A stretch of 64,000 nucleotides of DNA from Leucoraja ocellata. Its lineage: Eukaryota. The stretch covers positions 682,001 to 746,000 of the forward strand of contig JAWMAR010000034.1 of assembly GCA_036785375.1 (NCBI GenBank), read 5' to 3'. The position numbers and the translations under genes were made by a program. The notes below the pieces were generated by a model. It was not told the origin of the DNA and did no database searches. It saw only the letters and a list, made by a program, of their open reading frames with translations. Of this stretch, positions 12,558 through 60,938 are shown piece by piece (within the stretch, counting starts at the first letter, position 1; each line of letters opens with the position of its first letter).

Positions 12558-15500
12558 TTATATTTTCAGGCGTGGAGCAAGCTGGCTGTATTCAGAGCTC
12601 CCTCTACGATTCCGAAGATCCTAGAAAATACCAAGACAGTGTTAACATCCAAATAATAAATATGTGACTGCCTACCGCCTTAATCCTCCCATGTGTCAGG
12701 CAAGGAAACCCCGGTTGCCCCTTGCGGTTGTGGTTGCCACTTCAGGAGAAGGTTGGGAAAGCATGTGAGGGGCTGCAGAAAGGAATTCTGAGGACCTTCT
12801 CGTGGTCAGTTATGTTCTGGTTGGGCTTGGCTTGTTCTCTTTGGAACAAGGGGACCTGAGGGAGATCCAGAACAAGGGCAACTGAGGGAGATCCAGAACA
12901 AGGGAGATTTGGGTGGAGAGGGGGGGGAGTGTTGGGTGGCTGTGGCTCCTCAAAGGATATGTGCATTAGTCAGAGTGATGGAGCAGTTGTGCTGAATAGA
13001 CTCTTTTTGACACATTATAAATATGAAAGACATGGAAAGAATCAACAGGAGCTTCTCCGAAGGGAGATGACTAACTATAGAATAAGGGTTTAGACAATTG
13101 GTCAATTAGCGGAAGGACTAAGGGTTGATGAAAATTCTTCACCCGAAAGACAGTGATGGGGCAAGTGGGGACGAGTCTAGGATTTGCTGACTGAAAGAGT
13201 AATGGAGAGGGAAACTCTCATAGAAGCCAGGAGGCACCTGGATGAATCCTTGAAGAATCATAGCTTATAAAGCCAATGGCCAAGAGCTGGAAAGTAGTTT
13301 TACTCAAAATGAAGGTAGACGTAAGTTCTGGAGAAGGGTCTTGACCTGAAACATCACCTTTTCCTTTGCTCAATAGATGCTGTCTCACCCACTGAGTTTC
13401 TCCAGCATTATCGTCTACCTTTGATTTTTCCAGCATCTGCAGTTCTTTCTTACACATTTAATCAAAATGAACTTGCTTTTGGTTGGCATGAGAAATCACA
13501 AGCCGATTACAACCCTCTTTCTGCTGTAAATCTTGTTGCTTCATTAAATTATCTCTTTCTACAATATCATATTCACTGCATGGGATCTGGATTATGAAAT
13601 TACCCAGTAGGAAATTACACCCTCAGCACTTTGCACTGAGATATCTATATTTCTCCCATCCCAGAGCAGGATAGAGAAAATTATCTCCTTCAGGAAGGAG
13701 AGTTACCATGCCCATCCCTGCTCATCTCTTGTGTAAGAAGGAACTGCAGATGCTGGTTTAAACCGAAGACAGACACAAAAAGCTGGAGTAACTCAGCGGG
13801 ACAGGCAGCATCTCTGGAGAGAAGGTTCGGGTCGAGACCTACAGCTTTTTGTGTCTATCACCTGTACATGTCTTTATGGACACACTCGGCAGAGGTCTCG
13901 GACCAGGTATCCTCTTCCCACTTCAACCAATAGAGCATGTCGTAAAACCACAGTCTGCTGGTTTCGTGGAGATATCCAGTGTGTACTTGACAAATATTTG
14001 AAGCCTTTGCCAATATTGAGGCAGATACGATAAAAACATTTAAACGGGTAGATAGATAGGGAAGGTTTACAGGGACAGCGGCCAAACTCAGGGAGGTACA
14101 ACCAGCGTAGATGGGGCATCTTGGTCAACATGGGCAAGTTGAGCTGAAGGACCAGTTTTCTGTGCTGTATGACTCCTGCAGATGACGTAGGCATACCCTG
14201 GATTGGCTCCTAGGGTGGGTCAAGTCATCCTTTCTCAGCCATTAAGAGAGCAAAACTTTGTTCTCAACTGTCAGCCTACATGATTTGGTTGCTCCTATTT
14301 AGTTCCCTGTAACCTAATCTCTTGCATATTCCCATCAACTGATTGCTGTACCTCTTGCCAACACCAGGGGCAATTTACATGAAACTGCAACACCCAGGGG
14401 AAACTCACTTGGTTGCAAACTCCACACATTCATTTGTTTGTTGCTCCACATTAATAACTTGATCAAAGTCCAAAACCCACTCAAACTCAATGAACTCTAG
14501 TAGACAACTGTTGACTCTCCTTACCTGATACAGATCGTTGTTGTGGGGAACAAGGTGCTGCTCGTCAGAAGCTGGAAGAAAAGTACAAGGAAGGGAATAA
14601 GTAACTTGGAATTATCTAAGGCACGACCAATACTATTTATATAAGGTACACAAAAAAGCTGGAGAAACTCAGCGGGTGCAGCAGCATCTATGGAGCAAAG
14701 GAGAAAGGCAACGTTTCGGCACGAAACGTTGCCTTTTTCCTTCGCTCCATAGATGCTGCTGCACCCGCTGAGTTTCTCCAGCTGTTTTGTGTACCTTCGA
14801 TTTTCCAGCATCTGCAGTTCATTCTTAAACCATTTCTATAAGGGTTAGGCTTAGGTATAACATTGTCAAATGTACCAAGTTACAGAGAAAAGATTTGTTT
14901 TGCATGCTATCCAAACAGATCGGATAAACCATACATAAATCAAGTCAAACTCCAGTACAGTAGATAGAGAAAAAGGGAAAACACAGAGCGCAGAATATAG
15001 TTCCCAGCATTGTAGCGCATCAGTTCCATTGACAAAGGACTAATGTCCTCAATAGGCTAGCGATGAATCGGACAGATTCAGATTCAATTTTTTTTTAATT
15101 TCAATTTTAATTGTCATTGTCAGCACCCTAACTTATGGAAGGCCTGTTCAGATAACAGAGGGGAAGAAGCTGCTGACACATGACAAATTTCTTCAGGCTC
15201 TTCAGGAAGTAAAGATATTGCTGAGCCTTCTAGGCCGTCGCATCAGTGTGCTTGGTCCGTGAAAGATCATTTGTAATATTAATGCCAAGGAACTTGAAGT
15301 TATCGACCATTTACACTTCCACACCATTGATGGCTGAATGGAGCATGTACTCAACTATGCTTCCTGAAGTTAATAACTTGCTCCTTTGTCTTGCTGCCCT
15401 TCAGGGAGCGGTTATTGTCCTGAAACCATATCACTAAGTTCTCCATCTCCCTCCTGTACTCTGTCTCATCATTGTCTGTGATTCGGCCCACCACGGTGCA

Positions 15501-18292
15501 AATCTTCAACTGGAATTAGCACCTAGTTTAGCCATACAGTTGTGAGAGTATGGGGAATATAGGAAGGTACTGAGAATGCATCCTTGCATGGCTCCACGTT
15601 GAGAATTATTGTGGAGGTCTTCTATCCTCCCTGATGGGGGATTCCTAGATCCAGGATTTTGGAGATGAGTGGATAGGATTATGGTGTTGAAGGAAGAGCT
15701 ATAGTCGATACATAGGAGTCTCGTGTTATCTAAGTGTTCCAGAGATTTGTTTAGGGCCAGGTAGATGGCACTTGCTGTAGACCTGTTGCAACGGTAAACA
15801 AACTGCAACCGATCAAGGCTGGCTGGGAGGCTGGAGTTAATATGTTCCAATGATCAGTCTATCAAAGCACTTCATGATGGTGGGTGTCTGAGCCACTGGA
15901 CGATTGGGCAGCAATCTAAAATTCTCTTCCCCAAAATGTTGCGGTGCCTGGAGGTTAATTGAACCTTTCACAAGAGATGTTTTATTTTCCTACTGGCAGC
16001 ACAGTGTTCAATTGTTAGTATATCATGGTTCAGTTGCTTTTCACTCAGAAAGTTGCAAATTCAAGTTCCAATGATCTTGTATGGGATCTCCAATGCCTAT
16101 TGCTGGGATATGGACATGTTTGTAATGGGCTGTGAATCGACCCAACTGGCTCAAGGCTAAAAGGTTGGCCAAGTACATAATGACCTTATAGTTAGTAGAA
16201 GTAGAGGATGAGACAATCAGTACAGGTGTGATGAGAACTGATAAAATAAATGGTAACCTTTTCCTCCCTTCGAAGATGCCACACAGTAGACCGCTAAAGC
16301 GATAAAGACAGTAGCAATAAGGTCTCCAATCACAATTCCAGAGATCGTGTTGGCATCCAGTTGCACACAATTCCTACAAACTGAAAACAAAGGTAGGACA
16401 AAAACGTATCAAAATTTCATTTTATATTTAATGCAATATAATTTTTTAAACATCTATTGCTCCTGTTTTGTTCATTCATTCTGGTGCTGCAGCTGACCAC
16501 CTTCTTATGTTCAGCCAGTGCTGAATTGGAGAACATAGCCCTGATATTCAAATTCTACTTCTGTCTCAGACAGCCACCACTTCTTTTGTTCCCAGCCCAG
16601 TTTGGTAATGGTTCCAATGAGGAACTCGGGGTCAGGTAAGTCAGGGACAGCAATGTAACAAACACTAACATCATGCCCAACTCCAGTTATTACATCTCTT
16701 CAAGTGTTACATAGAAAAGATCAACTTACGTTTGACAAACACAAAAGTGGTCGATCTCTTTTGGCCAACAGTGCAGGTATATTCTCCAGTATCGGTGTCC
16801 GAGAGCTTGGTCAGTTTCATATTACCATCGTGCGTTTTCCCTGCATAGTTCACTCCGTCCTTCTCCCATTCTCCAACAATTGGACACTTCATAGTGATGC
16901 CACCAGACTCTTCCTTGATCACTGAGGAGGACGAAGCACAGGAGCTGAGCAGCACTCTGACAGTGCTACTGACTGGGAGGTGAGCTCCCTATTGGAATTC
17001 AAAGTCTGATTCCCAAGTAGTAATTTGTGCTCAGCTTTTAGCTAGTGTCAATCTTAGAACAGAATGCTGATGTGGAAGAGAAGTCAAGAAGGGAGAGAAA
17101 AAGGAACGGATCTGCCCACAAGCGTGATGCTTGGCAACACTTTAACATGAAAAAAGCCTGCAAGTTCACATCCCGGCATAGTTTGCTTGTCCCCTGACTC
17201 TCAGTCTGAAGAACTGAAATGTTCTTGACCCAAAAACGTCACCTATACCTTTTCTGAGTTATCCAGCTTTTTGTGTCCATCTATAGTTTTCTGGGATTGC
17301 TTGCTTAAATTTGATGATTTGTAATTAAAAGGTAATATAATCCTGAAAATAGCCAAGGTGTTGGAAAATTATAACTGGATCACTAATGTCCTTAAAGAAG
17401 AGGGACATTAGTTATATGCCTGAGACAAGGTTAGCATTTCCAGAATTTTAAACTCTGAATTCAAATTGACAAACTAATCTTTGGACACACAGCTCTGGAT
17501 TGCTCTTTGTAGTATTTTATTGGTCTTCATGATATTTTATTATTCTGCTCAGTTGCTTATCTGTTTATTCTCGACTGCTGATCTATACTCTATGTGTAGA
17601 ATGGAACTGCAGATGATGGTTTACACCAGCACAAGGGAGACACCAAACGCTGGAGTAACTCAGCGGGACAGGCAGCGTCTCTGGTGAGAAGGAATGGGTG
17701 AGGCTTCAGTCTGGAAAAGCGTCTCAACCTGAAACGTCACTCATTTCTTCTCTGCAGAGATGTTGTCAGTCCCACTGAGTTACTCCAGCATTTTGTGTTT
17801 GTACTCTATGTGTGTTGGTGGTCGAGGAGAAACATGTAAGCATAACTATCAGGATCTCGGAAGTTTTCCGGTCTGGAAACTTGAGTCACTTTCTGGGTCA
17901 CATTCGTTTGCAACTTAGTGGAGGTTCAGTGAACTGAGTGTTTACTGCTAGGAATTATCTTTACACCTTAATCTCTGACCGGCAAGCTCAAAGCAATTGC
18001 AAAGGGATGAGGCAAACAAAGTGAAATCAAAGAAATAGCAGAGATCTGGGCACGGAGTCACCCTAACAGCTTGATGTTACTGCAAAGGTGGAATAAGAAA
18101 TTACCCACTTGCTCTCTTATCCATGCAATGTTTCAAAGATAAGCAAATAAAGGTTTTTGTTGAAAACCCAATTAAAAACTGTGGAAAATCTAACAAATGC
18201 TAACCTTCAGTTTCTTGCTTTTCATAACTCATAGTAACGTTTAACCCCAATAATAAAAATCAACGGCTTACCAATCATTTCTTGGGAAAACC
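12558..18292 (-). CDS. cd3gd: T-cell surface glycoprotein CD3 gamma/delta chain (signal-peptide exon not located)
   Basis: Phase-consistent exons: 18272-18292 (FSQEMI); 16730-16921 (Ig domain [12 protein letters not shown]...DTGEYTC...FVFVK); 16258-16380 ([35 protein letters not shown], with CxxC and TM Asp); 14525-14571 ([16 protein letters not shown]); 12558-12620 ([20 protein letters not shown]). ITAM is YQDL-x8-YSQL. Matches the CD3G/CD3D pattern (ASDKQTLL...LYQPL...YSHL). Confidence 0.93.
13314..13456 (+). mobile_element. Penelope-like non-autonomous element (single arm with degenerate hammerhead core)
   Basis: CTGGAGA-AGGGTCTTGACCT-GAAA-CATC-ACC followed by the family arm and tail. TSD TTTA(C/A)TCAAAATGAA at 13299-13313 and 13457-13471. 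Confidence 0.65.
14645..14830 (+). mobile_element. Penelope-like fold-back element
   Basis: Near-perfect inverted arms of about 75 bp around CGTTTCG/CGAAACG, a tail of about 35 nt on one side, and TSD ATTT(A/C)TATAA at 14635-14644 and 14832-14841. Confidence 0.75.
14850..15910 (-). mobile_element. Rex1/Babar-clade LINE fragment (degenerate RT)
   Basis: ORF 15506-15850 encodes [47 protein letters not shown] and GAMQGCILS, typical Rex1 RT motifs, with frameshifts. Confidence 0.8.
17598..17801 (-). mobile_element. Penelope-like fold-back element
   Basis: Inverted arms (CTGGAGTAACTCAGCGGGAC / GTCCCACTGAGTTACTCCAG), central CTGGAAA..GAAACGTC, and TSD TACTCTATGTGT at 17586-17597 and 17802-17813. 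Confidence 0.75.
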
Positions 18293-20665: not shown

Positions 20666-20876
20666 AGGAAAGAACTGCAGATGCTGGTTTAAATCAAAGG
20701 TAGACACAAAATGCTGGAGTAACTCCGCGGGACAGGCAGCATCTCTGGAGAGAAGGAATGGGTGACGTTTCGGATCCAGACCCTTCCTCAAACCGTCTCG
20801 ACCCGAAACATCACCCATTCCTTCGCTCCAGAGATGCTGCCTGTCCCGCTGAGTTACTCCAGCATTTGTGTCAACT
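20666..20876 (-). mobile_element. Penelope-like fold-back element with a near-intact minimal hammerhead motif
   Basis: Inverted arms and a one-sided tail. TSD GAGGG(C/T)ATATGTGT at 20652-20665 and 20877-20890. Minus strand 20761-20794 reads GGT-TTGAGGA-A-GGGTC-TG-GATCC-GAAA-CG-TC-ACC. Confidence 0.78.
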
Positions 20877-22867: not shown

Positions 22868-24100
22868 GATGTTAGTAACCAGCGTCCAAACTGCAGAACC
22901 CGCTTACCAGCGTAACCAGTTTACGTCTGATAAGGGTCCCACCCGAAAATATATATTTTTTCTCCAGAGATACTGCCCGATCCACTGAGTTACGCCAGCA
23001 CTTCATGTCTATCTATCTACGACAGACATGCTGGCATTTCATTTAGAAAGCTGCGAGCTACCAAATCCCATTGCAACGGTGCCAAGGTATGCAATAGTCG
23101 ACACATAAAGGGTTTCTCCAAAGGGACATTTAACATGGAAGAGTTCAGCAAAGTGTTTAAAACTGTGATCAAATTGACCATGTTTGATCTGATAGAAACA
23201 TAGGTACAGACGTCGGCCATTCGGTCCTTCGAATCATTCAATGTGATCATCACTGACCAAAATCAGTACCCCGTTCCTGCTTTCTCCCCATATCCCTCGA
23301 TTCCGTTAGCCATAAGAGTTATATCTAATTTTAGACAGACCCACCACCATGATTACATCATTCATGGATGGATTTTATGGGGTTCAAATAAATGACTTTC
23401 ATTGTGGTGGGTCTGTCCTGGCAGTGGGTCGGTACATACCGAGAGAACTGAGGAAGAATCTGAAAGGTCTGATTCTATCAATGAAGCTCTGTCAAGTTTG
23501 TGATGATGGATCTGTGGCAACGCATTAACGGGGACATTATGAAGCGGGACTGTCTTTGTTATACAATAATCGGTCTGCAATGCCAAAACTAATATCACTT
23601 ACTTCAATGTTTGTGTCACATTATTTTACAAATGGTCCCAATTCTTGGCAATAAGGTGGCAAACTACATCTGCCCTGAAGTGCAGTACCCAGCACAGGGC
23701 ACAATCGCCCGATGTTCTCCACAGACGCTGCCTGGCCGCTGAGTTACCCCAGCACTTTGTGCAAACCGGTATTTGCAGTTCTTTGATTCTACACCAGCCC
23801 GGAGTTCAGCCGGACTCGTTCTGACTCGGTAACCGGCGAATTAACCGATGCCAGGCTCGTGTAGAAATACAGAGGGTCTCGACCCGAATCATCGCCTATC
23901 TCTTTACTCCAGAGATGCTACCTGACAAACTTGCTGTGTCCTTTCGCCCAGCTCACACCTCAGTCACAGGGCAACTGTTCCCCGAGTCGCAGTCAATAAG
24001 GAAACCAGAATAGAAATGTTCCCTTTATTCCACGCATTTTAAAAAACATTGCTTAGCATCTGCAATAAAATATGGCTCTTTGGACCAAGCATTCTTGAAA

Positions 24101-24281
24101 GTACACAAAAATGCTGGAGAAACTCAGCGGGTGCAGCAGCATCTATGGAGCGAAGGAAATAGGCAACGTTTCGTCCCGAAACGTTGCCTATTTCCTTCGC
24201 TCCATAGATGCTGTTGCACCCGCTGAGTTTCTCCAGCATTTTTGTATACCTTCGATTTTGCAGCATCTGCAGTTCCTTCTT
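24101..24281 (+). mobile_element. Penelope-like fold-back element
   Basis: Inverted arms of about 70 bp, a one-sided tail, and a perfect 14-bp TSD AAGCATTCTTGAAA at 24087-24100 and 24282-24295. Confidence 0.8.
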
Positions 24282-24299
24282 AAGCATTCTTGAAAACTG

Positions 24300-24500
24300 G
24301 ATGGGGAAGGTGGAGTGGGGAGGGAGGTAAGAGTTGAGGAGAGGAGAGGAGATGAGAGGGGGGGGGGGGGGAGCGGAGTAGAAGGGAGGGGAGAGCAGTG
24401 AGAGGAGATGATAGAAGAAGGGAGGGGTGGGGAGTAGAGTGGAGCGGGGCTGGGGGAGGGGAGAGAGAGGGGCAGGGAAAGGGGAGGGGTGGAGGGTGGA
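24300..24500 (+). repeat. Polypurine G/A-rich low-complexity tract
   Basis: Almost entirely G/A with many G-runs. It explains the Pro/Ser/Leu-rich spurious ORFs here. Confidence 0.85.
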
Positions 24501-26849
24501 GGTTTTGCGCGTGTGCATCGGGCGGTTCCCCGGAGCATTGGAGAGCTGGTGCCAGCAGCCGGTCCCGGAGCGCCCGGCACAGGGCGGCACAGGCCGTGTG
24601 CGCAGGGAATGGGTTAGAGACCAAGAACCGGGGAACCAGCGGCACTTAGTATTGAGTTAAAACTAAACTCTCAATTGCAAATAGTTTAATAGCGACAGAT
24701 ATTATACAAATTGCAATTGACACCTGCGGCATTTGCTGTTCTTATACAGCAAAACCGTAAGGCCAAGCTACTGGCATGCTCTACTTTGTAAGAAATATTT
24801 AAACTCAAAGCATGTATTTTGTCACGTAGCAACTGAAATTAAAAGACAGACCCGGGGACATGCAATCCGGCACAATATTGAAATATGTTTGCAGTTTCGA
24901 AAATAAAAATCATAATTTACAGAACATTAAAAAAAACATTTCTATATGCGTTGGGAAAATACTACTTAACAACTGTAGTTTGTGTTTTAAACCGTACAGT
25001 CTGTAAAGAAATCGGACTAACTATTGTTATCCTGGCGTGCATGTCGGGTTTTAAAAAGTGATTAATTTATAGCTCAGAGGTTTGCTCAGGTCCTGGTTAC
25101 AGCTTCATTCGCCAGAGTTGTGGATCTCACTCGTACATTTATGTCAAGGACTTGCTCCGAAATATTTTAGTTTGGCTTTAAGCGGCCTTACAACTAACTA
25201 ATAGCAAAAACATATCACCCACCGCCCCACAATGGAACAAAATGTCAATCTTTTCACAATTCAAGCCTTGCATAAAATTGTTTGGCCTCCTCCTTCAAAG
25301 CAAACTCCAAATTAACGCGAAAATAGGAATTTGCTGGCATTTGCTGTTGGTTCTGTTCACCCGCCAAACCCGAGTCTACATTCAACGATATGTATATATA
25401 TATTTGCAGCTAAAGCGAATTAACAGCCTGCCAAGTTGGTCGCTATTTTAGGGCAAAGCTTTATTACAAAATATATATTTGTAAATACTTGTTGTGGAGC
25501 ATTGACAGTAAATACTGATAAGTATAATTACTAAGATTAATTTTAATAAGGATACCATTAACATTCGGCTGTATTTGTGTCGGTCCACTTACTGAAGTTA
25601 AAGCATAGCAGTTTAATATTTCGTTTAATTAATTGCAAAATCCCCCCCCCCCCCGGTATAAACGTTTAGACATTGATCTTACCGAAAAGCAAGATTGTCG
25701 CGCCTATCACGAACACGAGGTTCCTGTAAAACTGCATCTTTCCGATCCCTTCGGAGAGGAAAAAAATCAAGACAATGAGTTTATTTTAAAAGACTCTGAT
25801 ATTCAATTTCGCAGACTAGTGTGATGCTCAGACTGTGACTTCTCCCGGGGTTGAGGAGGCGCTGTGTGCCACAGTACCCCCTTCAGATAAACAACAGGAA
25901 CCCGCGAGGCGTAGACACGAGGAACTGCAAATGCCGCTTCACACAAACCGTGAGGACTTGGTGAGTCGCGGTTCTACAACAGACGTCAAAATGGCAGTCG
26001 CATCTGACATTAACACTACATTCTTGAAGTTCAGATTCTTTTGAATTTAAGGCATCTTTAACGCATGCCACCAATACAGGCCAGACACAACGTGCTGGGG
26101 TTATTCAGCGGGTCAGGCAGCATCTCTGGTGAAAAAAGGATGTGTGCCCGGCACCCTTCATGCTGCCCGATCCACTGAATTACTCCAGCACTTTGTGTCA
26201 ATCTTTGGTATGAACCAGCATCTACAGTACTATGTTTCTACATCTCAGACACACGGTGTTCAATATTCTTGGCCTTACAGACAGCATAGAATCAGACAGC
26301 GTGGAAACAAGCCTTTCAGCCCAATTTATCCATGCTGAGCAAGGTGTCGAACTAAGTGGATATGGCTCAAACCATTTGCCAGCGTTTGAGCCATATCCCT
26401 TTAAACCTTTCATATTAATGTACCTGTCCAAATGACTTTCAAAATGTACTTGTGTCAACCACTTCCGCTCGTTCCACACAGTATCACTCTGGTGTGGAAA
26501 TGCGGCCCCTCAGACTCTTATTAAATCTTTCCCCTTTAAATCTACTCTTGATTCCACAACACCGGGTAAAAGGATGTGTGCCTTCAACTGTTCTATGCTC
26601 CTCATGATTGGATGCACCTCTGAAAGATCACCCCTCAGTCTCCTACCCTCCAAGGAATAAAGTCCCAGCCTGCCCAATCTCCCCCTTTTTACTCGGTCCC
26701 TTGACTCCTGGCAACATCTAAATATTTTCTACACTCTTTCCAGCTTCTTGGCATCTTTCCTGTGGTTCGCTGGGTGACCAAAGCTGAACACCAACACGGG
26801 GAGAGGCAAGAATGGAGGGATGTTTATCAAGGGCAGAAAAGCAGCTAGC

Positions 26850-26899
26850 TCCATAGATGCTGCTGCACCCGCTGAGTTTATCCAGCTTTTTTGTATACC
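26850..26899 (+). mobile_element. 50-bp Penelope-like arm fragment with TSD
   Basis: Family arm sequence flanked by a perfect 12-bp TSD AAAGCAGCTAGC (26838-26849 and 26900-26911). Confidence 0.75.
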
Positions 26900-27333
26900 A
26901 AAGCAGCTAGCACTGATTGGAAGGGGAGCTTTGAAGAATTCCACAACCTTGAGTTTGTCCTTGCCACACGTGTCCATGAGACTATTTCACAGTAAATTAT
27001 CCAGTCACACCTCACCGCCATCCCTGACCAACAATTAGCTGAAAGCACCACACACACCATGAGACTGTTTGACGTTCTCGGGAGCTTCACTGCAGAAGTG
27101 ATTAAAAATTGCTGGAAATGAAATTCAACGACATATTCACACCTTGATCTCTCGCAACTGGGAAGAGGGGATTCCAGGGATGTCAATGACCACATGAGCT
27201 TTGATGGTAATGGTGATTGGACGGTATTGTCTGCCACAAGGTAAGTCAGTGTAAGAGATCTTGTCAATTGCCTCCTCCTAGTGGCTAAAGATCGGTTCAC
27301 CAGTGGTAAGAACTGCAGGATGCTGCACTAATT

Positions 27334-27540
27334 GTTTAAGAAGGAACTGCAGATGCTGGAAAATCGAAGGTACACAAAAATGCTGGAGAAACTCAGCGGG
27401 TGCAGCAGCATCTATGGAGTGAAGGAAATAGGCAACGTTTCGGGACGAAACCCTTGGGTTTCGTCCCGAAACGTTGCCTATTTCCTTCGCTCCATAGATG
27501 CTGCTGCACTCGCTGAGTTTCTCCAGCATTTTTGTGTACC
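27334..27540 (-). mobile_element. Penelope-like fold-back element
   Basis: Near-perfect inverted arms of about 85 bp with a 2-nt loop, a 35-nt one-sided tail, and a perfect 13-bp TSD TGCTGCACTAATT (27321-27333 and 27541-27553). Confidence 0.82.
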
Positions 27541-27649
27541 TGCTGCACTAATTACTTGACATAGTGTTTAATGACCTCATTAAAGTTTTTCACTTGGTTG
27601 GTCGACAAGGACAGTTTGGCATCCTCATATTTAGCTGGCCACGGAAATT

Positions 27650-32800: not shown

Positions 32801-35800
32801 AATCCCCCCAAAAATTGTAGAGATTTTGAAGAAAATTCTGTTTTGGGATTTTTTTCTTTGTAAGCAGGAAGTTCTATTTATGTTTAAAAATGTGATATTT
32901 TTGATAGATCTTTGCACAATATCTTTGTAAACACGATATGTGTTTAAGATAGTAAACCATGCCAATCAAAGGAGTGCAATCAAACAAAATTCGACACCAA
33001 GGAATGTAAAGGAACAGGCAACCAAAAGATTGGCCTAGGAGACAAGTTTAAGATGCATCTTAGTGAAAACAAGAGGGGTGCAGTGGTTTTTGGGAAATAT
33101 TAGGCAGTTGTAGACACAGCTAACAAGGATATTGCAATCAACATCCGAGATGTGCAAAAGATCCAGTTGAAAATATATAAATGCTTTGAAGTAGTTTGTG
33201 TTGTTTATAGGACACATTTGAAATTGTGCCAAAACAGCCAGAATTGAATCTTAATTTTTTTTAGTGTCCTCTCAGCAATATCAACAGAGTCTGTGTTTCT
33301 CTCTTCACAATTGCTATCCAATCAGCAGGATTGTTTCCAGTACTTTCTGGTTTTATTTTGGATTTCCAACCTGAGGATTTTTTTATTTTCATTATAGTAA
33401 TGCCTCATTTTACATTTTAAACCTAGTGTGCATCTTTTCTCTCATGAATTCACAAGGAGCAGAGACTCAATAATTCATTTTGAATTCCGTCTCAGATGTC
33501 CTGCCCCGCAGCAGCAAGAGGCCATTACGCACTCCGCCGCACCCCAACCCCCCAGCCATGCAAAGTGAAACCACACAACGCTCAGAATTTGGGCCGAGGG
33601 TCCCGAGAGAGCAGACAAAAGCTGGCAACAGGGTGAGTAGAGTGTGACTGCCATGTGCTGACATTCGTTGTGGTTATGTTGTTGCAATCCTGAGGAAGTG
33701 TCCAGTGCCACAGGAGAGTGGAATGGTCAAATTCTACACACAAGGCATAACAGCTGTAGCTTCACCAGTGCTTTCCACACTGTAATATAACAAACCAAGT
33801 TCTATACTCAATTCCCTGAATGGTGAAGGCCAAAATGCCAAAAGCCACCTTCACAATCCTATCTCCCTATCTATCTTTCATTGAACTATGGATATGACCT
33901 GGATTCTTCATTTCTACAACACTGCCCAGCCCAGGGCACTACTGTCCAGGCAGCATCTCTGGAGAGAAGGAATGAGTGATATTTCGGGTCATAGGGTCTC
34001 GACTCGAAACGTCACCCATTCCTTCTCTCCAGAAACGCTGAGTTACTCTCCAGCATTTTGTGTCTACCTTCGATTTAAACTAGCTTCTGCAGTTCTTTCT
34101 GACAAACTTTTCTTATTTCCTGTCTAGAAATGTGCAGGAAGTTAACGCCTAAAGGTTCACAGATATAGTGCACAGGCCACCTGTGAGTGAGTCCATTATA
34201 GGACAGTGGCTGTTCCATACCACTGAACAAATGAAGAGATCCCAAGTGATTTCAGGCTATAGAGCTGTAGGGATTTCAGTGGTAGAGCTGCTGCCTTATA
34301 ACAGCAGAGATCTGGGTTCGATCTTGAGCACGGGTGCAGTCTGTACGGAGTTTGTATGTTCTCCCTGTGACTAAAGATTTTCTCCAGGAGCTCCGGTTTC
34401 CTGCCACACCCCAAAGACGTACAGGTTTGTAGGTTAATTGACTTCGGTAAAAATTGTAAATTGTCCCTAGTGTGTAGGACAGTGTTAGTGTACGGGGTAA
34501 TCGCTGGTCGGCACAGACTCGGTTGGCCAAAGGGCCCGTTTACATGCTGTATCACTAAAGTCTAAAAGTTATCAGGAGCTGGTTCAGGATGATTGTATCC
34601 CTAGGTAAGGTTGTATCCCTAGGACTGGACCCAATCTTTTATCAACAACAGAACTTTATGTCCTGCTGTATCCACTGCATTGTGTGGGCTGATGATGGGG
34701 CTGGAATATAGGGCATCACTGGCAGAGTGCCTGAATGCCCAAAGCCCACTGCTAGTTTCCAGATGGACAGAGATGATGGAAAGCATCAGGAAGGTAAACG
34801 AGAGGCCAACATTGGGGGAAAGTTTATCTCCTTTAACTGGATTTCCCTTCCACTGACCATTTGAAATAAATCGGAGTGAAAATTTAAAAAAACTTCATGC
34901 TGAAAATACAAAATGAAGCAGAAAATGTCATAAAGGCTCAGCAGATCACGCAGCATCTGTGGAAGGAGAAATATTAGCTAACATTTGAGGTTGAAACCCC
35001 TTTGCCAGTGGTTGTAGATCCTATCTGAAAGATGCCTCACCTGCTGAGCATTCCCAGTATTTTCTATCTAGGATTCATGTCTGCCAATAATTATTGAATG
35101 CTAGGTTATAAATGGCACTCACTTCAAGACTCTACATTAATGATGAGCAAAAATGTCAATTTCTGTTCTTGTGCCTTGTTGATGGGTTATTTCACATTGA
35201 TAAGCCTCTGCAGGAACAACTTCACTCTAAATCTATACACACCAAGGGATTGACTCTAAAAGAACGTCCAGCGACAGTCCAGAAATGTCTCAAAGGTAGC
35301 CTACCGTCGAGTCGATCGAGTTCCAGAAGCAACACCAGCTGCAAGGGTTGGAAGTCTGAGCCTTCAGTGAGATCTGGAGAACGTTTGACTGCATCAGGTG
35401 AAGCTCCCTAATTTTCTGAGCCATTTCCTTTAGCTTTAAGTTGTTCGCTCCTTTCTTAATGGTGTTTTTGCACACCTCATGCTTTGTAATCAATATGATA
35501 TGAATGGAGAGGATAGCATCAGATGCAGGAGATGGGATAATAAGTCCAAAACTGAAAGGTGGGAAACTTTTAATGGAGGGGCATTCACAACCCTGGGATC
35601 TGCTTTATTTTCATTTACATTCATGACAGAGCAAAGGTTAGCTTATCTAAATTTCCCACTTAGAAAAGTGACCTGAGAGAAGGATACAAGGTGAATATGA
35701 AGAGGTTCTGACTGTTGTTAATTGAATTAGCAAGAAATTGGTAAATGGTGATTAATTCAGAGTGGCACATTGGTAGAGTTGCTTCCTTACAACGCCAGAG

Positions 35801-38800: not shown

Positions 38801-41800
38801 CGTGACATGCGTGGGTTTTCTCTCCCACTCCAAAGACGTACAGGTTTGTAAGTTAATTGCCTGGTATCAATGTAATTGTGTGTAGGGTAATGCGTGTGGA
38901 TCGTTGGTCCGTGCATGACCCGCTGGGCTGAAGGGCCTGTTTCTGCACTGTATCTCTTAACTAAACCAAATGTCTACAGATTCAGTGCTGAATGTTGGTC
39001 AAGCAGTTTAACAATTTAGAAATGGCAGGGGAATTAAAGAAGTAATGCTGAGGTTCTGCTGGTTGTAATCAATGTATTTGAAGAGACTAATGTTTACCTG
39101 GAAATGTAATTGCCAACAAATTTTCTTTTCAGGTCTGGAGTCAACCTCTCAAGGATGGGAGGGGACACCAGACAGCACATTTGAATACTACAAAAATGGC
39201 CAAGACCCAGCCTGTTGTGACCAAGGCTTCTTTTACAACTGAATTTTGATGCAAGACGTCAATGTCTAAAATAATCATTGTCCCATTGCATCAAAACTAC
39301 ATTAGAGTGGCTAGACAACTATTTTTTTAAGATGTTTCTTAAAAAAAGGTAGTAAATAAAAATTAGGAGAGATTAAGAATTCATTTTTGGGATATGTTAA
39401 AAGGTAACGGCACAGATTTCCAGGTGATTCTTTGGCTTCAACTGAACAGATGATTTTGGTCCCAGGGAGTTCTGCCATTACAAAGAAAACAGCTACAGTA
39501 GGTCATGGAGTACACTTCACCTTTGCCACACTCACTTGTGGTTTTACCATGGGCTGCTTGGAACTCCCAGTTGGGATGATCCCAGGACATGCATGATATT
39601 AGTTAGGTCAGATAAGTGTAGTGACAGGTAGAGTACAAAGCTTCCTCTACACCGTCAATATTCAATCCCTCACAGGGTGAATACGACATGGATTTGATAA
39701 AGAATACTGTAATAATCTGTGGGTCAAGTACACATAGAAGATAGTGATTGTTTACAGTTTTGCAGGCGTTGTAAAGTTATAATACATTGAATTAAATTGT
39801 TCACAATATGTTACTGTGTCACTAAAGGTGTTCATGATTTGAATACCACTTACCAAGTCGAATTTCAGCCTTTGCCCTTTGCGAGACAGAAGACAGTCAG
39901 GAAGCGAACAAAACCCAAGCCTGCTCCCATGGACCTGCTGAGCAGCTACCGCAAAGATTACCCTGAACACAAGCAATCGAAGATGTTGTCAATAATACCA
40001 GCGCAGGACAACTTGCAAGTTAACCGTCATCTGCCGTAAGATCAGTGCATTGATGCACGTTAATACCACATTGCTGAGGGGCAGGGTTGCATCTTGCAGA
40101 GGAATGGGACAAACTTTGTTTTCACTTTCGGAAAAGTTCTTTAGAAAATTTAACTTAATCTTCTCTAACTCCCTCGCTTTAACAATTTCCTGCACCATGT
40201 CATTCACCAGGAAGAAGGCACAGGGAAGTATCAATTTTCAAATATCAAGAAATATCAATTCAGGTTCTTGTCAAATAGTGGAAAACAGATAAAGGAAATC
40301 TGAAATAACAAGAGAAAATGCTGGAAACTTGGCAGCATTGTGAAAAGAAAAACAGAGCTAATGTTTCAGGCTGAGGGCCCTTCATCAGGAATGGGAAAGA
40401 GAAACCAAACTTATTTTTGCTCTCGGCCATTTCTGATGGAATTCAACCTGAAACATTAACTGTTTCTCTCTTCATAGAAGCTGCCTGACTTGCTGAATTT
40501 TTCTCCCCCAGTACTTTTGTTTTAATTTATTGCAAAGTGGTGTTGTGCAACGACAAGGTCAGATACCTTGTTGACACTCACTATTAGAATCATAGTGTGA
40601 TAGTGTGGAAACAGGCCATTCAGCTCAACTTGCCCACACCAGCCAACATGTCCTAGCTACACTAGTCCCACCTGCCTGCGCTTGGTCCATATTCTTCCAA
40701 ACCTGTCCTATCCATGTATCTCTTAAACGAAGGGATGGTCCCAGCCTCAATTACCTCCTCTGGCAACTTGTTCCATATACCCACCACACTTTGTATGAAA
40801 AAATTGCCCCTCGGATTCCTATTAAATCTTTTCCCCTTCACCTTGAACTTATGTCCCCTGGTCCTCAATTCCCCTACTGTGGGCAAGAGACAGTGATATT
40901 CAAACATGTGATAAAGTTCCAATGGTCTCAAAGCAACTGATTGCATTCTGTTACCAGGGAACGTTTGTAGTGACGAGTGTAAAGAATTGCACGTCATTTG
41001 ATAGACAGCCATCTACACTTTGAAACACTGGCATTAACTTTTTACATGTATTATTTAAAACAGAATATTCAACTTCATCACATTGCAGATTTTAAATTAT
41101 CTTTTTCATTTAGCAAGAACCCGTCTTAAAATTCTCTGACCAGGTTTCAGTCTCCCTTAGTAGTGTTAAATCTCAAGACTAAATAGATGCTGCACAGCTT
41201 CCCATTGTCCACCCAGTTTGTCGTTTTGCCATATACAAGATTAATGCAGTCCACGTAGATGTTACCGTCCAATCCTCATGTGTATAGTGCCCAAGACTCA
41301 AATTGCAACAAGTACAAAGAGGAACACTAGATAATGTTTCTTTCCCATGTTGACAAGAGAACTAAAACTATTTATAGAACTAGTTAACTGGATCGGCCTC
41401 TGCAAATGCAGCTTGAACACAGGTCCATTTCTTTACCAGATCACCAAAGCAACTCAACGTTTGCTGCATTGATATTTCCAGTTTACAGAGCCATACACAT
41501 AGTTATCATGGGTCTTTACAGTTGAGTGAATGCAGCTCCAGTTTAAATTCCATTTGGAATATTTTGGAGGACCAAGAAACCAAGCTTAGATAGCTTAGGC
41601 CATTGGGGATACATGTTTACAAATATTTAATAATTTAAGAAATGTTTTTGGAATAGCTTTGATCAATTAAGCTTATCATGTTGTAGTATATGATGTAATA
41701 TTAATGGAAAGGGTTGGAACCAAGGTGAAGGCATCTGCTGCTTGAGATTAATGTAAGGAGTGGATATGGAAAGTGTGTATTCCTGGAGCCCATCGTGAAG

Positions 41801-55400: not shown

Positions 55401-58400
55401 TCTTTATCATGGTTTTATAAAGCTCCTGTGAACCATCTTGGGTTGTCTGGTGTTGTGAAAATGCAAGTTGGTAGGCTCATAAAACCCCAATCTATTGTAA
55501 ACAGGCCCAAAGAAGGGCAATGAATGAAGAACTGGGATATCCCATTTGAAGAATCAGCAAATTACTATAAATGCCTGCTGCACCGAAATAGACCATCCCA
55601 CTGCTAATGGTATTTACGCTCCAACTCTTTTCCTACCATCAGCTTTACCGCACATTCTTCAGCTTATTTCTCCCAAGTGTGTATATCGAGCTTCCTCTGA
55701 AAATAATTTACTCTATGTACCTCTTTGCTGACTCTTCTGATTTATTTTGAATATTTTAGCATTCATCTTATTTTTCATGACCTTTAGTCATGGATTTCCT
55801 CTTCCAATATTTCCCATTATTTATGATATCTAATGCCTCCAAAATTGGAGGTTTTCTTATAGGAATTAAATCAAGTATTAGATATATCAATAATAGACAA
55901 AAGAGCAACGTCCAGCAATTCAGACTTACGTGCCAGTTTGTGTTTGTAAAAACAGGTCTGAGCCCTGTGAGTCTGCATTTTCATCTAAAAGAAAACACAA
56001 AAGCATTAATTGCCCTTATAGCAGGCTTGTGCTTCCCTAATACTTCTTATTAATGGAGAAACAAGAGTCTGCAGATGCTGGAATCTAGGGTAAATCACAA
56101 ACTGCTGTAGGGTCAGGCAGAATCTGTCGAGGGAAATAGCCAGATGGCATTTTGGATGAAGACGCTTTTTCAGTTGAAGGGCCCAACATGAAAAGCCATC
56201 AATCCATTTCCCACCATGGATACTGCCTGGCCTGCTGAGTTCCACAGCAGTTTGGTTATTACTTCCTTTTAATGGTATTTTATATATTGATAAAGGTTAA
56301 CTATCAGTGTCTCTATTTGTCAATTTTCTTGAACTGAGGGGTGTGTGTTGCGGGGAGGGCAAGGAAATCACTAGAATTCGCCTGGCAATTTAAACATATG
56401 TGGCACTGAATTCAAATTCACCTTAACCTAAATGTGAGTATTTAATAAAGTCTCCAATTACCTGGTTCAATCCTTTAGGACAAGAGAGTGGCCATCAAAC
56501 CAGGTCTATTTGTGATCAGGACTCCAAAGTAACATATTTGATTCTGAATGTATCTTTGAAGTAGCCCAACACACTATTTGGTTCAAGATGGCCCATTAAT
56601 ACTTTGGTACCCGGCAGATTCTGACCATGGCAGCAATGTTGACATTTCAATAATGCATTCAAAAGGGACAGTGTTGCTTTTGACAAGATTTCAAAATCCA
56701 CCATGACACTGATATACAATAATTCATAAAAGTTGACATCATGATTTTACCACATACCGCCTAAAACTTTCCACTTGCTGGATCGAAATTCTTCCATTTG
56801 CTGAATAATTACAGGTCTCTCATCAATTAATTCTGCAATCTAAGAAAGAAGGCTTGGAATGAACATGAAATACAATATAACATTGACTTTCAGTGACATA
56901 ATGCCTTTAATGTAGTAAAATGTTCCAAAACATTTTACAGGAACGTCACGAAAATATCTGGCACCAAGCTGAAAAAAAATTAGGAAAGATGGGGAAAGAC
57001 TTTGCTTAACGAGGTAAGTGTTAATGATTTTTTTTTAGGAGAAGGGTAGAAAGGTTTAGAAAAGAAATGCCAGACCCTACAGACTATCTGATGAGAGCAC
57101 AGCTGGAAGTACAAGATTTACATGAGAAAAGAACTTGAGGAATCAAAAATGAGCTGATACAAGTTAACAAAGTGGTAACGGGCAAATGGGTGGAAATTAG
57201 AATGAATGTAACAGCATTTTGAATCAGTTCAAGTTCATGGAGGGCACAAAGTTGTCCAGGAAAATATAGAATTGATGAATCTGAAGGTTAAAAAAGTATC
57301 AATTTCTGAAGTTTAAAAAAGAATCAATGAGAATTTCAGCAGTAGATGGGTTGAGGCACAGTAGAAACAAGCAATTATGCAAAGGTGAAATTAGTTGTTA
57401 TATCAGATGTTATGTAAGCTCCCTATACAAAAAAAAAGTCTTGCTCCATCCCTCTCATCTGAGTCTGATGGACTTGCAAGAACTGGCATTGCAATGGCAA
57501 TCAGACGTTGGGAGATATAGTGTCTTTGAGTAGCAACGTTACAATCCCCGCAATCAGTGGCGCTCTAGATCTGCCCACTGCCTGTGCGTGCAACTCGATA
57601 GGCTGTGGGTAAAATGCAGGTTGTCAGGGAGGGATTTCCTCATACGACAAGCTTATGATGTGGAGGAAATCTCATTCTGTCATCCCGTTCGTGTTTTTTT
57701 TCAAAATGTTGCTGGTCTATTGGATTGCTGGATTTGAAAGTCGGGCTCAACTTCAACTTCAACCAAAAGGTATATAGGCGTTTATTTAGCATTTTATCTA
57801 GTTTTTGGTGTGATTTCATTTAGATCTGATGATGCAAAGTAAGTTATTTTGGCCTCGATATCTGTATGTACTGTGGACGTTTTTAGTCAGGTATTCGTAT
57901 GAAAATATTCATCATGGATAGACAATTACACAAAATACGGATAATTAAGATGTTATGACATGATTGTGCAAAAAATAATTTTGATTATCTTGGGAGTGGA
58001 TGTTTGAGGATTTTGAACACATGTCTGTGTAAACAGCCCTTGCTCTCGATCACAGCTTTTGTGTTAAGTTAATGGAAAAACAATAGGGAACAAGATGCTA
58101 ATTTCCGAGTATGAAAATGACAATACTTTTTTATTACTGGAGATATGAAAGTTAATTGGGTATCAAATTAAAGGTTTTTGATGCTTTACTTGATGGGACA
58201 AAATTACAGGCTTGATTTTTAACCTCAAAATTTTGTGACATCCCTACTTTGAGAAGCATCAGGTCAAAGCTAACATGTACTGGGGCATAAATCATTGCTA
58301 CGTTATCATGAATAGCTGCTAGATCAATCAGCACACTTTCTCTTCTGTTGTCAAGTTCATGGCAAATATAAAATGTGCTCCACTTTAGCTAGGACTCAAG

Positions 58401-60938
58401 GAGTATGCTCAGAAAAATGTGCCACGTCATAACAAAGGCAGGATAATTCACAAACTCAAGGGATTTCCTAACATAAAGAGAAATTAGCTTTAAAGGGAAT
58501 CATACCAGGACCATCCAAAAGTCCTTTGCAGCTTTCTCATGTGCAAAGCTGACAAATACTAAGGGAATGGATTGTTCATCTGTCCTCTTCCCAAGAGATT
58601 GATATCAGGAGGAGTGGATAAAGCAGAGATGGAGTGGGCATAGAGGATCATTTTTGCCTCAAGAAGCCATGGTTATCAGTTGAAACAATTCCAGGAAAGT
58701 ACAAAAGCACAACATAAATATTATTGTGTTGAATTTGCTCCAACACATCTCAGGTAATTTTTTATACATCATCCCAATTCACTGAAATAAAACAATCCTT
58801 CTCTTGCCTTTCGTCATTTTGCTCTCAACCATACAAGAAATTACAGGGAGTTGCGGATGTAACCCAGACCATCACGCACACCAACCTCCCTTCCATGGAT
58901 TCCATCTACACATCACGCTTCGACAAGTCCAGCAGCATAACCAAGGACCAGCCTCACCCTGTCACTCCCCTCTCCAATCAGGCAAGAGGTACAGAACTTT
59001 GAAAATGCATACATCCAGATTCAGGGACAGTTTCTTCCAAGCTATTATGAGGCAACTGAACAGTCCTCTCACCAGCTAGAGTGTGGTCCTGACCTCCCAT
59101 CTACCTCATTGGGGACCTTTCAACTATCCTTAATCAGACTTTATCTTGAACTAAATGTTATACCCTTTATCCCGATCTGTACACTGTGAACGGCTTGATT
59201 GTAATTGTGTATAGGTATTTTAATTGACTGGATAGCACGCAACAAAAACCTTTTAAATGTATCTTGGATCACGTGACAATAATAAAGTAAAAAAAAAAAC
59301 TAACTTTTGATGAGGATACTTTGGAAAGACATTGGTAGAGAAAAATAATATATTTTGGAATTGGTCAAATGGATGCAGCACATGTTTCAATACTATGCTT
59401 CCTGCACCATTCAGTTAGCAGCAATCTTTCAGACTACTATTAAAAATACTATTTGAGTTGCCATGTTATGATGTGCCAAGTAAGCCTTAAGGCAGAAAGC
59501 AATTTCTAGGAGTAAATGTATCTGCCTATACATACCACAGGAGCTTCATCATCATCATCACCAGACTCCACCTCCAATGTATTTTCGTCTGTCGCAAGGC
59601 TCTTCCAAGTCACATCATCATCCACAATCCGCATTCTGTGTAATGATAACAAGGTGAGATTTTCAGCTTATTGTGAGCTTATGTCAGAACCACATCATAC
59701 AAATGTTTAGTAAGAAAAATCTTTAAATAGCGAAATAAAAATCGACCTATTACTACGCTTTCTTCCCCCATGCCACAATCTGTCTGAAGAAGGTCCCCGT
59801 CCTGAAAATGTTGCCTATCCATTCTCTCCGCAGATACTGCCTGACTCACTGAATTACTCAAGCACTCCAGTGTTTTGCTCAAGATTCTAGCATCTGAAGT
59901 TCCTTGTATACTCTAAAGTTTAAGTCCTTAAACAGTGAGGGACAGAGTCCTGGGTAACAGTCCTTCAAACACTTGAAGGGTATATTGTTCAAAGAGGCCA
60001 GACGAATGGCATTAGACAAAAATGCTGGAGAAACTCAGCGGGTGCTGCCTCACCTGCTGAGTTTCTCCAGCATTCTTGTCTACCTTTGATTTTTCCAGCT
60101 CCTGCAGTTCTTTCTGAAACAAATGAATGGCATTGGTGATTTGTAAATAGTATGACGTGCTGATTATAACCATATAACAATTACAGCACGGAAACAGGCC
60201 ATCTCGGTCCTTCTAGTCCGCGCCGAACACGTATTCTCCCCTAGTACCATCTACCTGCACTCAGACCATAACCCTCCATTCCTTTCCCGTCCATATAACT
60301 ATCCAATTTATTTTTAAATGATAAAAACGAACCTGCCTCCACCACCTTCACTTGTAGCTCATTCCACACTGCTACCACTCTCTGAGTAAAGTAACTGTGT
60401 GGAATTGCACGGTATTTCTTGTATATATTTTAATGAGGGAAGTGTGTAGGAAGGAACTGCAGATGCTGGTTCAAACCAGATAGACACAAAAAGCGGGAGT
60501 AACTCAGTGGGACAGGCAGCATCTCTGGAGAGAAGTAATGGGTGACGTTTCGGGTTTGGGTCGAGACCCTTCTTCTTCAGAGTTTGTTTTTGAAATAGAA
60601 CAACTGCACACGAGGGCAAATCCTGGGCTGAATTGCGTCCAGTATAAGGGTTACCGTTCACGACATAGGAGCTACGTTTATAGTGAAGAGTTATAACTGC
60701 CTCTCCCCCAGTACTGCGCCTAAACATGGGCCGTTGCTGACACCATTAACCGGTCGCAGCCGCGGGCCTCGGCAACTGAAAGGAGGAAGGGGGGGGCAGC
60801 GCTGCGTTCTCACCCCCCGGCTTTGATCTTCGCTTTTCTCTTTTTCCTCCCGGCCGGAAGCTCCCTGTCCCCCCGTTTCCCGGACTCGGAGCTGCTGAGG
60901 TACCGCTTCAAATACTCCTCTCTGCTGAGCGCCGCCAT
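46432..60938 (-). CDS. BUD13: BUD13 homolog (RES complex splicing factor), about 504 aa, 10 exons
   Basis: Exons: 60814-60938 ([15 protein letters not shown]), 59536-59635 ([10 protein letters not shown]), 56758-56839 (IAELIDERP), 54713-55054 ([11 protein letters not shown] repeats), 54005-54255, 51471-51585 (LSGDKAGLV), 49141-49279 (TVFRDKLG...QWGKG), 48406-48590 ([13 protein letters not shown]...GDPMA), 48181-48262 ([19 protein letters not shown]), 46432-46525 (SNGFE...YKWSVEDM*). All GT-AG and phase-consistent. Confidence 0.97.
46765..47180 (+). mobile_element. CR1 LINE 3' fragment in a BUD13 intron
   Basis: Same sequence family as 3723-4065. Confidence 0.85.
50200..50730 (+). mobile_element. 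Rex1/L2-type LINE 3' remnant
   Basis: Encodes [10 protein letters not shown] and [12 protein letters not shown] in shifted frames. Confidence 0.7.
54770..54952 (-). repeat. 30-bp coding tandem repeat ([10 protein letters not shown]) in BUD13 exon 4
   Basis: Units of GGTGAAAGGTCAGG(A/C)GAATC on + recur at 30-bp period, about 5 copies. Confidence 0.9.
57530..58248. mobile_element. Probable DNA transposon remnant (Kolobok-like end)
   Basis: Distinct non-coding block ending GTGACATCCCTACT-TTGA, which resembles a TTAA-flanked Kolobok terminus. The partner TIR is not seen, and the family call is from memory. Confidence 0.3.
58835..59290 (+). mobile_element. Rex1/L2-type LINE 3' remnant
   Basis: Encodes [31 protein letters not shown]; ends GTGACAATAATAAA. 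Confidence 0.75.
60014..60124 (+). mobile_element. Penelope-like fold-back element, centre deleted
   Basis: Short inverted arms plus tail. TSD GAATGGCATT at 60004-60013 and 60125-60134. Confidence 0.72.
60443..60582 (-). mobile_element. Penelope-like arm with hammerhead-type core
   Basis: Minus strand reads CTGAAGA-AGA-AGGGTCTCGACCC-(AAACCC)-GAAA-CGTC-ACC, followed by the family arm and tail. Confidence 0.7.

What the first reader, a model, noticed from the sequence alone, without database searches (positions are those of the whole stretch)
13299..60582. Non-autonomous fold-back retroelement family with Penelope architecture and hammerhead ribozyme cores
Seen: a dozen or more 50-210 bp copies, for example 13314, 13730, 14645, 17598, 20666, 22925, 24101, 26850, 27334, 33950, 59780, 60014 and 60443. 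Many are near-perfect hairpins in which one arm carries an extra tail of about 35 nt (TTCGATTTTCCAGCATCTGCAGTTCCTTCTTAAAC). At least seven are flanked by 10-15 bp TSDs of variable length and sequence. The inner end of the arm runs into CTGAnGA-(A)-GGGTC..GACCC-GAAA-CG-TC. Established: an inverted pseudo-LTR with a one-sided tail, variable long TSDs and minimal type-I hammerheads are traits of Penelope-like elements (GIY-YIG endonuclease plus RT). Inference: these are not DNA MITEs but tiny ribozyme-derived, retrozyme-like retroelements mobilised in trans. Two subfamilies (..GGAGAAACTCAGCGGGTGC.. and ..GGAGTAACTCAGCGGGAC..) appear recently active.
Basis: partly seen in the sequence, partly recalled or inferred. 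Interest (0 to 1): 0.72.

Follow-up and report, generated by a model that had tools for sequence, protein, structure and literature searches.

The report
Penelope hairpin stubs with local seams
These short hairpins are the ribozyme-bearing end of a Penelope-type jumping gene that lives in the same genome, likely pasted in as very short dead-end copies rather than as a separate ribozyme element; the one unusual point is that some hairpin seams cluster on particular chromosome stretches, as if they were copied from neighbouring older hairpins.

Summary
The copies, one-sided ~35-nt tails and variable TSDs are real: 8 window copies have 10-14 bp TSDs. The arm is the 3' end of a Neptune-type Penelope-like element of this genome. 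In 26 of 30 RT-bearing loci, RT and GIY-YIG run straight into minimal hammerhead, arm and tail, and window arms match such ends at 92-98%. So the retroelement call holds and a DNA MITE is ruled out. A separate ribozyme-driven family is not supported. None of the 13 named copies has an intact hammerhead, and the three youngest hairpins lack CUGAAGA. Seams vary between copies, and 5' ends pile up at the ribozyme's front edge, not at its cut site. The layout (inverted truncated copy plus tail) is published for Penelope elements, and this scan has noted it many times in this and other genomes. One extra result: two exact seam types (385 and 1,878 copies) cluster by contig while the unjoined end does not (p about 1e-4 after collapsing hits within 1 Mb; control p 0.87). 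This suggests seams are partly copied from nearby DNA. No intact or full-length parent was retrieved.

The parts
13314..13461 (+). older GGAGAAAC-type end unit with tail; hammerhead core mutated; 10-bp TSD TCAAAATGAA
13730..13846 (-). GGAGTAAC-type tail plus arm, no TSD found
14647..14830 (+). young fold-back; arms joined at the TTTCG-NNN-CGAAA palindrome (+11/+11); tail on right; 12-bp TSD with 1 mismatch; no CUGAAGA
17213..17280 (+). decayed arm fragment
17598..17801 (-). GGAGTAAC-type fold-back, tail on left, 12-bp TSD TACTCTATGTGT
20666..20876 (-). GGAGTAAC-type fold-back, tail on left, 14-bp TSD with 1 mismatch; core mutated
22925..23014 (+). old single unit starting at the hammerhead front edge, core mutated
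23697..23930 (+). two old arm fragments
24101..24281 (+). young fold-back, +11/+11 palindrome seam, tail on right, 14-bp TSD AAGCATTCTTGAAA; no CUGAAGA
26083..26235 (+). old fold-back with tail on right
26850..26899 (+). 50-nt tail-less stub with 12-bp TSD AAAGCAGCTAGC
27334..27540 (-). young fold-back, tail on left, +9/+7 'AA-loop' seam type (385 exact copies genome-wide, 10 on this contig), 13-bp TSD TGCTGCACTAATT; no CUGAAGA
33947..34104 (+). GGAGTAAC-type fold-back with short inverted arm and tail
37965..38240 (.). old composite of arm pieces in both orientations
40350..40503 (.). old relative; the only strict minimal-hammerhead hit of the window lies here (40388, minus strand); left end approximate
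56060..56265 (-). old diverged fold-back, tail on left
59780..59905 (+). old single unit from hammerhead front edge to tail; CUGAAGA present, stem II decayed
60014..60124 (+). short fold-back joined at +56/+52, tail on right, 10-bp TSD GAATGGCATT
60443..60575 (-). GGAGTAAC-type tail plus arm reaching the hammerhead, with a small internal duplication

Best explanation
The copies are the 3' end unit (minimal hammerhead, ~65-nt arm, optional ~35-nt tail) of a Neptune-type Penelope-like retrotransposon of this genome, likely inserted as the shortest dead-end products of that element's RT and GIY-YIG endonuclease. Shown: the same unit ends RT- and endonuclease-bearing copies; it has two alternative 3' ends about 33-35 nt apart; most 5' ends fall at the ribozyme's front edge; TSDs are 8-19 bp. 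Inferred: the endonuclease makes a staggered cut. RT starts at either of two internal RNA sites (tail or no tail, as shown in vitro for an anole element) and runs off the RNA's 5' end, which probably lies at the initiator-like TCAGT just before CUGAAGA. When both cut strands prime a copy, the two cDNAs meet head to head and give a hairpin with one tail. The seam forms at short palindromes, bluntly, or in some cases by copying the centre of an older hairpin nearby, so that seam types spread along a chromosome region. The ribozyme is a passenger and is usually lost from the hairpins.
For: RT to arm is colinear in 26 of 30 RT loci, 19 as one unbroken hit. L334 and L337 hold DKG, RT, CX4CxxC linker, GIY-YIG, UTR, hammerhead and arm in order; Pfam RVT_1 E 1e-4 and GIY-YIG E 4e-4, both under the curated cut-off. 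Window arms match coding-copy ends 118/121, 109/114, 111/117 and 118/128. About 14 of 30 exact young ends carry coding sequence upstream, with scattered 5' break points. 3' ends are bimodal: 13 short, 25 long, 2 other of 40. 28 of 32 TSD-defined single copies start between -14 and +12 of CUGA and 0 at the cut site, +29. Seams are diverse in 36 fold-backs. The AA-loop seam is missing from 25 of 47 contigs (8.6 expected) and stays clustered after 1-Mb collapsing (p 1.5e-4); the unjoined end is not clustered (p 0.21, 0.87 collapsed). GG-AA seam: 98 of the first 100 hits lie on three contigs. 5 of 18 fetched cluster loci, picked by eye, have their own TSD and flanks but share the seam cassette; 8 of 18 share a 50-nt spacer found in no other locus held.
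Against: No full-length copy with a 5' pLTR was retrieved; the longest copy is 5'-truncated and broken, so the RNA start is unproven. No intact ORF of this family was found among the copies read. Twin priming predicts arms that may come from different RNAs, yet arm haplotypes agree in 26 of 31 pairs at one site (45% expected by chance); a second site agrees in 18 of 26 (71% expected) (the set includes duplicated loci). No donor locus was found for two captured spacers among the loci held. Segmental duplication inflates seam counts: 5 of 30 AA-loop loci are duplicates. The sample cannot tell short copies made from parent mRNA from short copies made from solo-unit transcripts.
Confidence: 0.72

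Rival explanations
1. One reading: a non-autonomous, retrozyme-like family. Solo units or hairpins are transcribed themselves and retrotransposed in trans by the Penelope protein.
For: Short copies far outnumber coding ones: 12 of 341 sampled elements reach the ORF. Both ends are fixed. Seam types recur at 385 and 1,878 exact copies, and the GG-AA seam has bases absent from the parent. The anole RT uses a short pLTR RNA in vitro (PMC11167929) and pLTRs sufficed in trans in Adineta (PMC3846280).
Against: Hairpins mostly lack the core: 12 of 72 intact. 5' ends miss the cut site. Copies are not tandem. Seam types cluster by contig, whereas an RNA intermediate should scatter them like the control. 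One seam sits on at least three arm haplotypes.
Confidence: 0.17
2. Same parent, but the inverted arm comes from self-priming or fold-back of one nascent strand (the palindrome model proposed for Adineta), not from two primed strands.
For: Arm haplotypes agree more often than chance at one site, 26 of 31. Seams often lie at palindromes or 2-4-nt loops.
Against: The tail-less arm ends at the second fixed 3' end, which fits a separate RT start. L012 has arms of different haplotypes. Many seams are asymmetric or hold extra bases.
Confidence: 0.2
3. Seam clusters arise from local RNA-based hopping of a transcribed hairpin near its source, or from segmental duplication and gene conversion, not from DNA-templated bridging during insertion.
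For: The 27334 copy lies in a duplicated segment, and it differs from its paralogue by a symmetric change in both arms, which points to post-insertion conversion. A duplicated block of hits is visible on C48.
Against: Cluster loci have their own TSDs, unrelated flanks and different outer-arm haplotypes around a shared centre. Clustering survives 1-Mb collapsing.
Confidence: 0.3
4. DNA MITE moved by a cut-and-paste transposase.
For: Near-perfect inverted repeats and high copy number.
Against: TSDs vary from 8 to 19 bp, ends are asymmetric, most copies are single-armed (266 of 341), and the arm is the end of an RT/GIY-YIG element.
Confidence: 0.01

Closest known systems
EN+ Penelope-like element insertions with an inverted 5'-truncated copy and a 30-40-bp one-sided tail (Craig et al. 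2021, PMC8557442; Arkhipova et al. 2013, PMC3846280; passages read)
   Same: Head-to-head inverted end, optional tail, TSD around the whole unit, heavy 5' truncation, palindromes at seams; RT plus C-terminal GIY-YIG with the CX2-5CxxC linker of Neptune/Nematis.
   Different: Here the unit is cut down to the end alone, at about 320 pieces per Mb, and some seam types form regional clusters; the passages I read describe neither.
Poseidon element of Anolis carolinensis, PAc (Frangieh et al. 2024, PMC11167929; parts 1-2 of 4 read)
   Same: Two internal RT start sites bound the tail; both DNA strands are cut and extended; hammerhead cleavage is not needed for insertion.
   Different: Different clade. 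In PAc the ORF starts inside the hammerhead; the 5' layout here was not retrieved.
[quoted passage not shown]
   Same: CUGANGA, one unpaired base, G-C-closed stem II, GAAA, palindromic ACGU in place of helix III; mostly single dispersed motifs tied to truncated PLEs, some in opposite-strand pairs.
   Different: Helix I is about 2 bp by eye, stem II is 4-5 bp, and the young subfamily has GUU at the cut site.
Non-LTR retrozymes (PMC7229834, passages; bioRxiv 10.64898/2026.07.22.740005, parts 1-3 of 5)
   Same: Non-coding, pLTR-related, type I hammerhead ancestry, long TSDs.
   Different: Retrozymes are head-to-tail repeats with complete hammerheads that give circular RNAs; these copies are single or head-to-head and mostly core-less.
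[quoted passage not shown] 2009, PMC2671141; abstract and outline only)
   Same: A short stretch is copied from a closely linked locus into a break.
   Different: Here the break and outer arms would be made by the retroelement and the copied part is another copy's seam (inferred).

Membership tests
EN+ Penelope-like element (Neptune/Nematis type), parent | RT followed by C-terminal GIY-YIG in one ORF | tested here: met
   In order in L334 and L337, as broken frames; Pfam hits under cut-off; 765 homologues, several annotated RVT_1 plus GIY-YIG
EN+ Penelope-like element (Neptune/Nematis type), parent | CX2-5CxxC linker between RT and EN | tested here: met
   CNRKRCNTC; feature named in PMC8557442
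EN+ Penelope-like element (Neptune/Nematis type), parent | Clade placement on an RT tree with named references | not tested
   No named PLE references were held; clade rests on the linker motif
EN+ Penelope-like element (Neptune/Nematis type), parent | pLTR repeated 5' of the ORF (partial tandem) | tested here: inconclusive
   Longest copies are 5'-truncated; one tandem of the end unit seen, L233
EN+ PLE insertion unit | Inverted 5'-truncated copy and one-sided 30-40-bp tail | tested here: met
   56 of 75 fold-backs; also on coding copies such as L078
EN+ PLE insertion unit | Variable-length TSD | tested here: met
   8-19 bp; 72 of 332 against 8 of 332 controls
Minimal PLE hammerhead | CUGANGA, stem II, GAAA, palindromic ACGU, NUH | tested here: met
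   Family level: 60 hits against 0 shuffled; 14 of 30 in each of two coding-copy sets; 0 of the 13 named window copies
Minimal PLE hammerhead | Helix I of 4-5 bp | tested here: not met
   About 2 bp by eye; RNAfold did not give the hammerhead fold
Minimal PLE hammerhead | Self-cleavage | not testable with these tools
   Needs an assay
Non-LTR retrozyme | Head-to-tail repeats with a complete hammerhead in each unit | tested here: not met
   Window copies are single or head-to-head; the 66-bp arrays seen elsewhere lack CUGANGA
Non-LTR retrozyme | Ends defined by ribozyme cleavage; circular RNA | tested here: not met
   0 of 32 5' ends at +29; circular RNA itself not tested
DNA MITE | Fixed-length TSD and symmetric termini | tested here: not met

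The most novel reading that the evidence does not exclude
Penelope insertions in this genome are finished by a DNA-templated step: two new cDNAs, primed from the two cut strands, are bridged by copying the centre of an older hairpin that lies nearby. Seam types therefore behave as protein-less, RNA-less hitch-hikers that spread along chromosome regions, reaching thousands of copies, and they record which loci were close together in the germ line.
Probability: 0.4. Interest if true: 0.62.

Novelty: new member of a known kind. Interest (0 to 1): 0.3.

Why it matters
How Penelope-like elements make their inverted ends and finish integration is open. About a million end pieces (extrapolated from 320 per Mb) with fixed starts, two fixed ends and countable seams make a large natural data set for that question. 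The contig-level clustering of seam types is a direct, testable prediction of local DNA-templated joining. For annotation, these repeats should be filed as PLE ends, not as MITEs, microRNA precursors or active ribozymes.

Tried and rejected
Rfam scan: only sub-threshold hairpin families, no hammerhead. The intact 759-aa GIY-YIG element that dominates a Pfam search of the genome does not carry the arm and is 29% identical to the true parent; rejected as partner. I first called the parent Poseidon; the linker motif points to Neptune type. Splicing to the CAG before CUGAAGA as the cause of the 5' pile-up: 5 genomic matches to an ORF-end/ribozyme join, none a clean splice form; not supported, though PLEs can keep introns. 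RNA: no RNA holder listed on record. Reads from three 2026 RNA runs and one contig set cover the end unit deeply, with loose ends at the same borders as in DNA and no pile-up of molecule ends at the cut site; these fragmented libraries cannot show a start, strand or cut, and the species match to G000 is not shown. No PDB relative. No coding part of the family in the window. One search used the wrong stretch of L240 and is uninformative. Six paper searches found no description of this family or of clustered PLE seams; Repbase and Dfam were not searchable, and the bioRxiv retrozyme supplements (which cover one chondrichthyan) could not be seen.
Full report
Observation. All 13 named positions hold the repeat. 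A reference-based scan finds 18 elements in the window, 8 with two arms. The best hairpins are 93-98% complementary. Eight copies have distinct TSDs of 10-14 bp. The window lies in a 3.44-Gb genome. The best named relatives of the parent's RT are bamboo-shark proteins at 66-71%, so the host is likely a cartilaginous fish; 'skate' comes from earlier notes and I did not test it.

Genome sample. I took 100 stretches of 10 kb, 98 at fixed positions on large contigs and 2 flanking the window, plus the window itself: 1.064 Mb. They hold 341 end pieces (320 per Mb): 75 fold-backs and 266 single arms. 56 of 75 fold-backs have one tail, 16 none and 3 two. Nine elements near stretch ends were dropped before the TSD count. 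TSDs of 8-19 bp were found in 33 of 72 fold-backs and 39 of 260 singles, against 8 of 332 controls with mismatched flanks. This rules out a DNA MITE.

The parent. A Pfam GIY-YIG search of the genome was dominated by an intact 759-aa element in telomeric-repeat arrays, which lacks the arm. A weaker hit, L078, shows an endonuclease C-terminus, about 120 nt of pyrimidine-rich UTR, a minimal hammerhead, the arm and the tail, with a short inverted arm at its 5' end. Walking upstream reached RT. In 26 of 30 RT-bearing loci the body runs into the arm, 19 as one unbroken hit. L334 and L337 hold DKG, RT, a CX4CxxC linker and GIY-YIG in order, with frameshifts and stops; Pfam scores are below cut-off. 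The linker is the Neptune/Nematis mark named in PMC8557442; I made no tree. Window arms match these ends at 92-98%. Among 30 exact young ends, about 14 carry coding sequence upstream with scattered break points. No intact or full-length copy was retrieved, and the window holds no coding part.

Ends. 3' ends are bimodal, near +95 and +129 from the C of CUGA: 13 short, 25 long and 2 other among 40 endonuclease-bearing copies (histogram). This matches the two internal RT starts shown in vitro for the anole element (PMC11167929). 28 of 32 single copies with a TSD of 10 bp or more start between -14 and +12, two start further upstream, two further downstream, and none at +29, where a cleaved RNA would begin. 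The peak lies at TCAGT, which resembles an initiator (recalled motif). Drosophila Penelope has an internal promoter (PMC2377424, passages). An RNA start here is inferred, not shown.

Ribozyme. The motif fits the minimal PLE hammerhead of PMC4209133: 60 strict hits in the sample against 0 in a shuffle. It is intact in 12 of 72 fold-backs, 40 of 260 singles and 14 of 30 in each of two coding-copy sets, but in none of the 13 named copies. The three youngest hairpins start at +7 to +11 and have lost CUGAAGA. The young subfamily has GUU at the cut site. In a fold-back transcript the whole region pairs into one long stem, which would exclude the ribozyme fold (inference).

Seams. In 36 fold-backs with both arms at least 85% like the reference, seams are mostly unique; three share the +11/+11 palindrome and three overlap at the TCAG-CTGA palindrome. 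That fits products made afresh. But 10,821 GGAGAAAC-type fold-backs with close seams exist, and some seam types recur. The AA-loop type of copy 27334 has 385 exact copies. On contigs C1-C47, 83 hits leave 25 contigs empty (8.6 expected), and 10 lie on the window's contig. The unjoined young end is spread as expected (98 hits on C1-C32, p 0.21). After collapsing hits within 1 Mb, p is 1.5e-4 for the seam and 0.87 for the control. The GG-AA type, whose loop is not in the parent, has 1,878 exact copies; of the first 100, 40 lie in 2.4 Mb of C1, 47 in 3.9 Mb of C5, 11 on C6, and none on C2-C4. Of 18 loci fetched from the C1 cluster, 5 picked by eye are whole insertions with their own TSD, unrelated flanks and different outer arms around a shared centre; the rest were not resolved, and many sit in 66-bp arrays. 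Eight share a 50-nt spacer found in no other locus held. Caveats: 5 of 30 AA-loop loci are duplicates, only the first 100 hits per pattern were listed, no donor was located, and conversion after insertion also happens.

Arm pairing. Arm haplotypes agree in 26 of 31 pairs at one site (45% by chance) and 18 of 26 at another (71% by chance); L012 has clearly different arms. The set includes duplicated loci. This does not decide between twin priming and fold-back.

Comparison and verdict. The layout is the published EN+ PLE insertion unit (PMC8557442, PMC3846280; passages), reduced to its end. It fails the retrozyme tests of tandem layout and cleavage-defined ends (PMC7229834, passages; bioRxiv 2026.07.22.740005, parts 1-3 of 5). 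The scan has reported such stubs many times in this genome and in shark-like genomes. It is a new member of a known kind, interest 0.3. The seam clustering is the part worth following: probability 0.4 for DNA-templated bridging, interest 0.62 if true.

Noticed in passing
window 22371-29040 and L010/L344 (G000:C34, about 195.5-202.2 kb): An inverted duplicate of this stretch at 95-97% identity lies about 500 kb away and holds both the 24101 and 27334 insertions. The window's 27334 has a symmetric G-to-T change in both arms that its paralogue lacks and that the neighbour 24101 carries, which suggests gene conversion.
   Followed up: partly
L061:2941-6431, L062-L067, L073-L075: A second, intact Penelope-like element (759-aa RT plus GIY-YIG, linker CX4CxxC) with an upstream ORF of about 600-620 aa sits in tandem within (CCCTAA)n arrays, many copies nearly identical. 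The upstream ORF ends in motifs that recall an SGNH esterase (recalled, not tested).
   Followed up: partly
L070:968-1383; L316-L333: 66-bp tandem arrays made of the 3' half of the hammerhead plus arm, without CUGANGA, often wrapped around the GG-AA hairpin cassette.
   Followed up: partly
L331:816-945: A hairpin insertion with a 12-bp TSD holds about 100 nt of foreign sequence and a triple 33-nt repeat in its centre; no donor among loci held.
   Followed up: partly
window 448-727, 5508-5618, 34277-34563, 35768-35930, 38721-38964, 61775-61906: Another dispersed repeat family that looks like a tRNA-derived SINE of elasmobranchs (name recalled, not tested).
   Followed up: no
window 2021-2163, 3728-4058, 46833-47162, 52043-52243: Pieces that look like CR1-type LINE 3' ends (recalled, not tested).
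   Followed up: no
window 54762-54956: 39-bp tandem repeat, about five units.
   Followed up: no
L065:986-4798: Open frame of 1,271 aa next to the telomeric Penelope-like element; its start looks like a LINE endonuclease (not tested).
   Followed up: no
L240:420-1100: An unrelated young repeat with at least 40 copies at 93-96% identity, met by a mis-aimed search.
   Followed up: no
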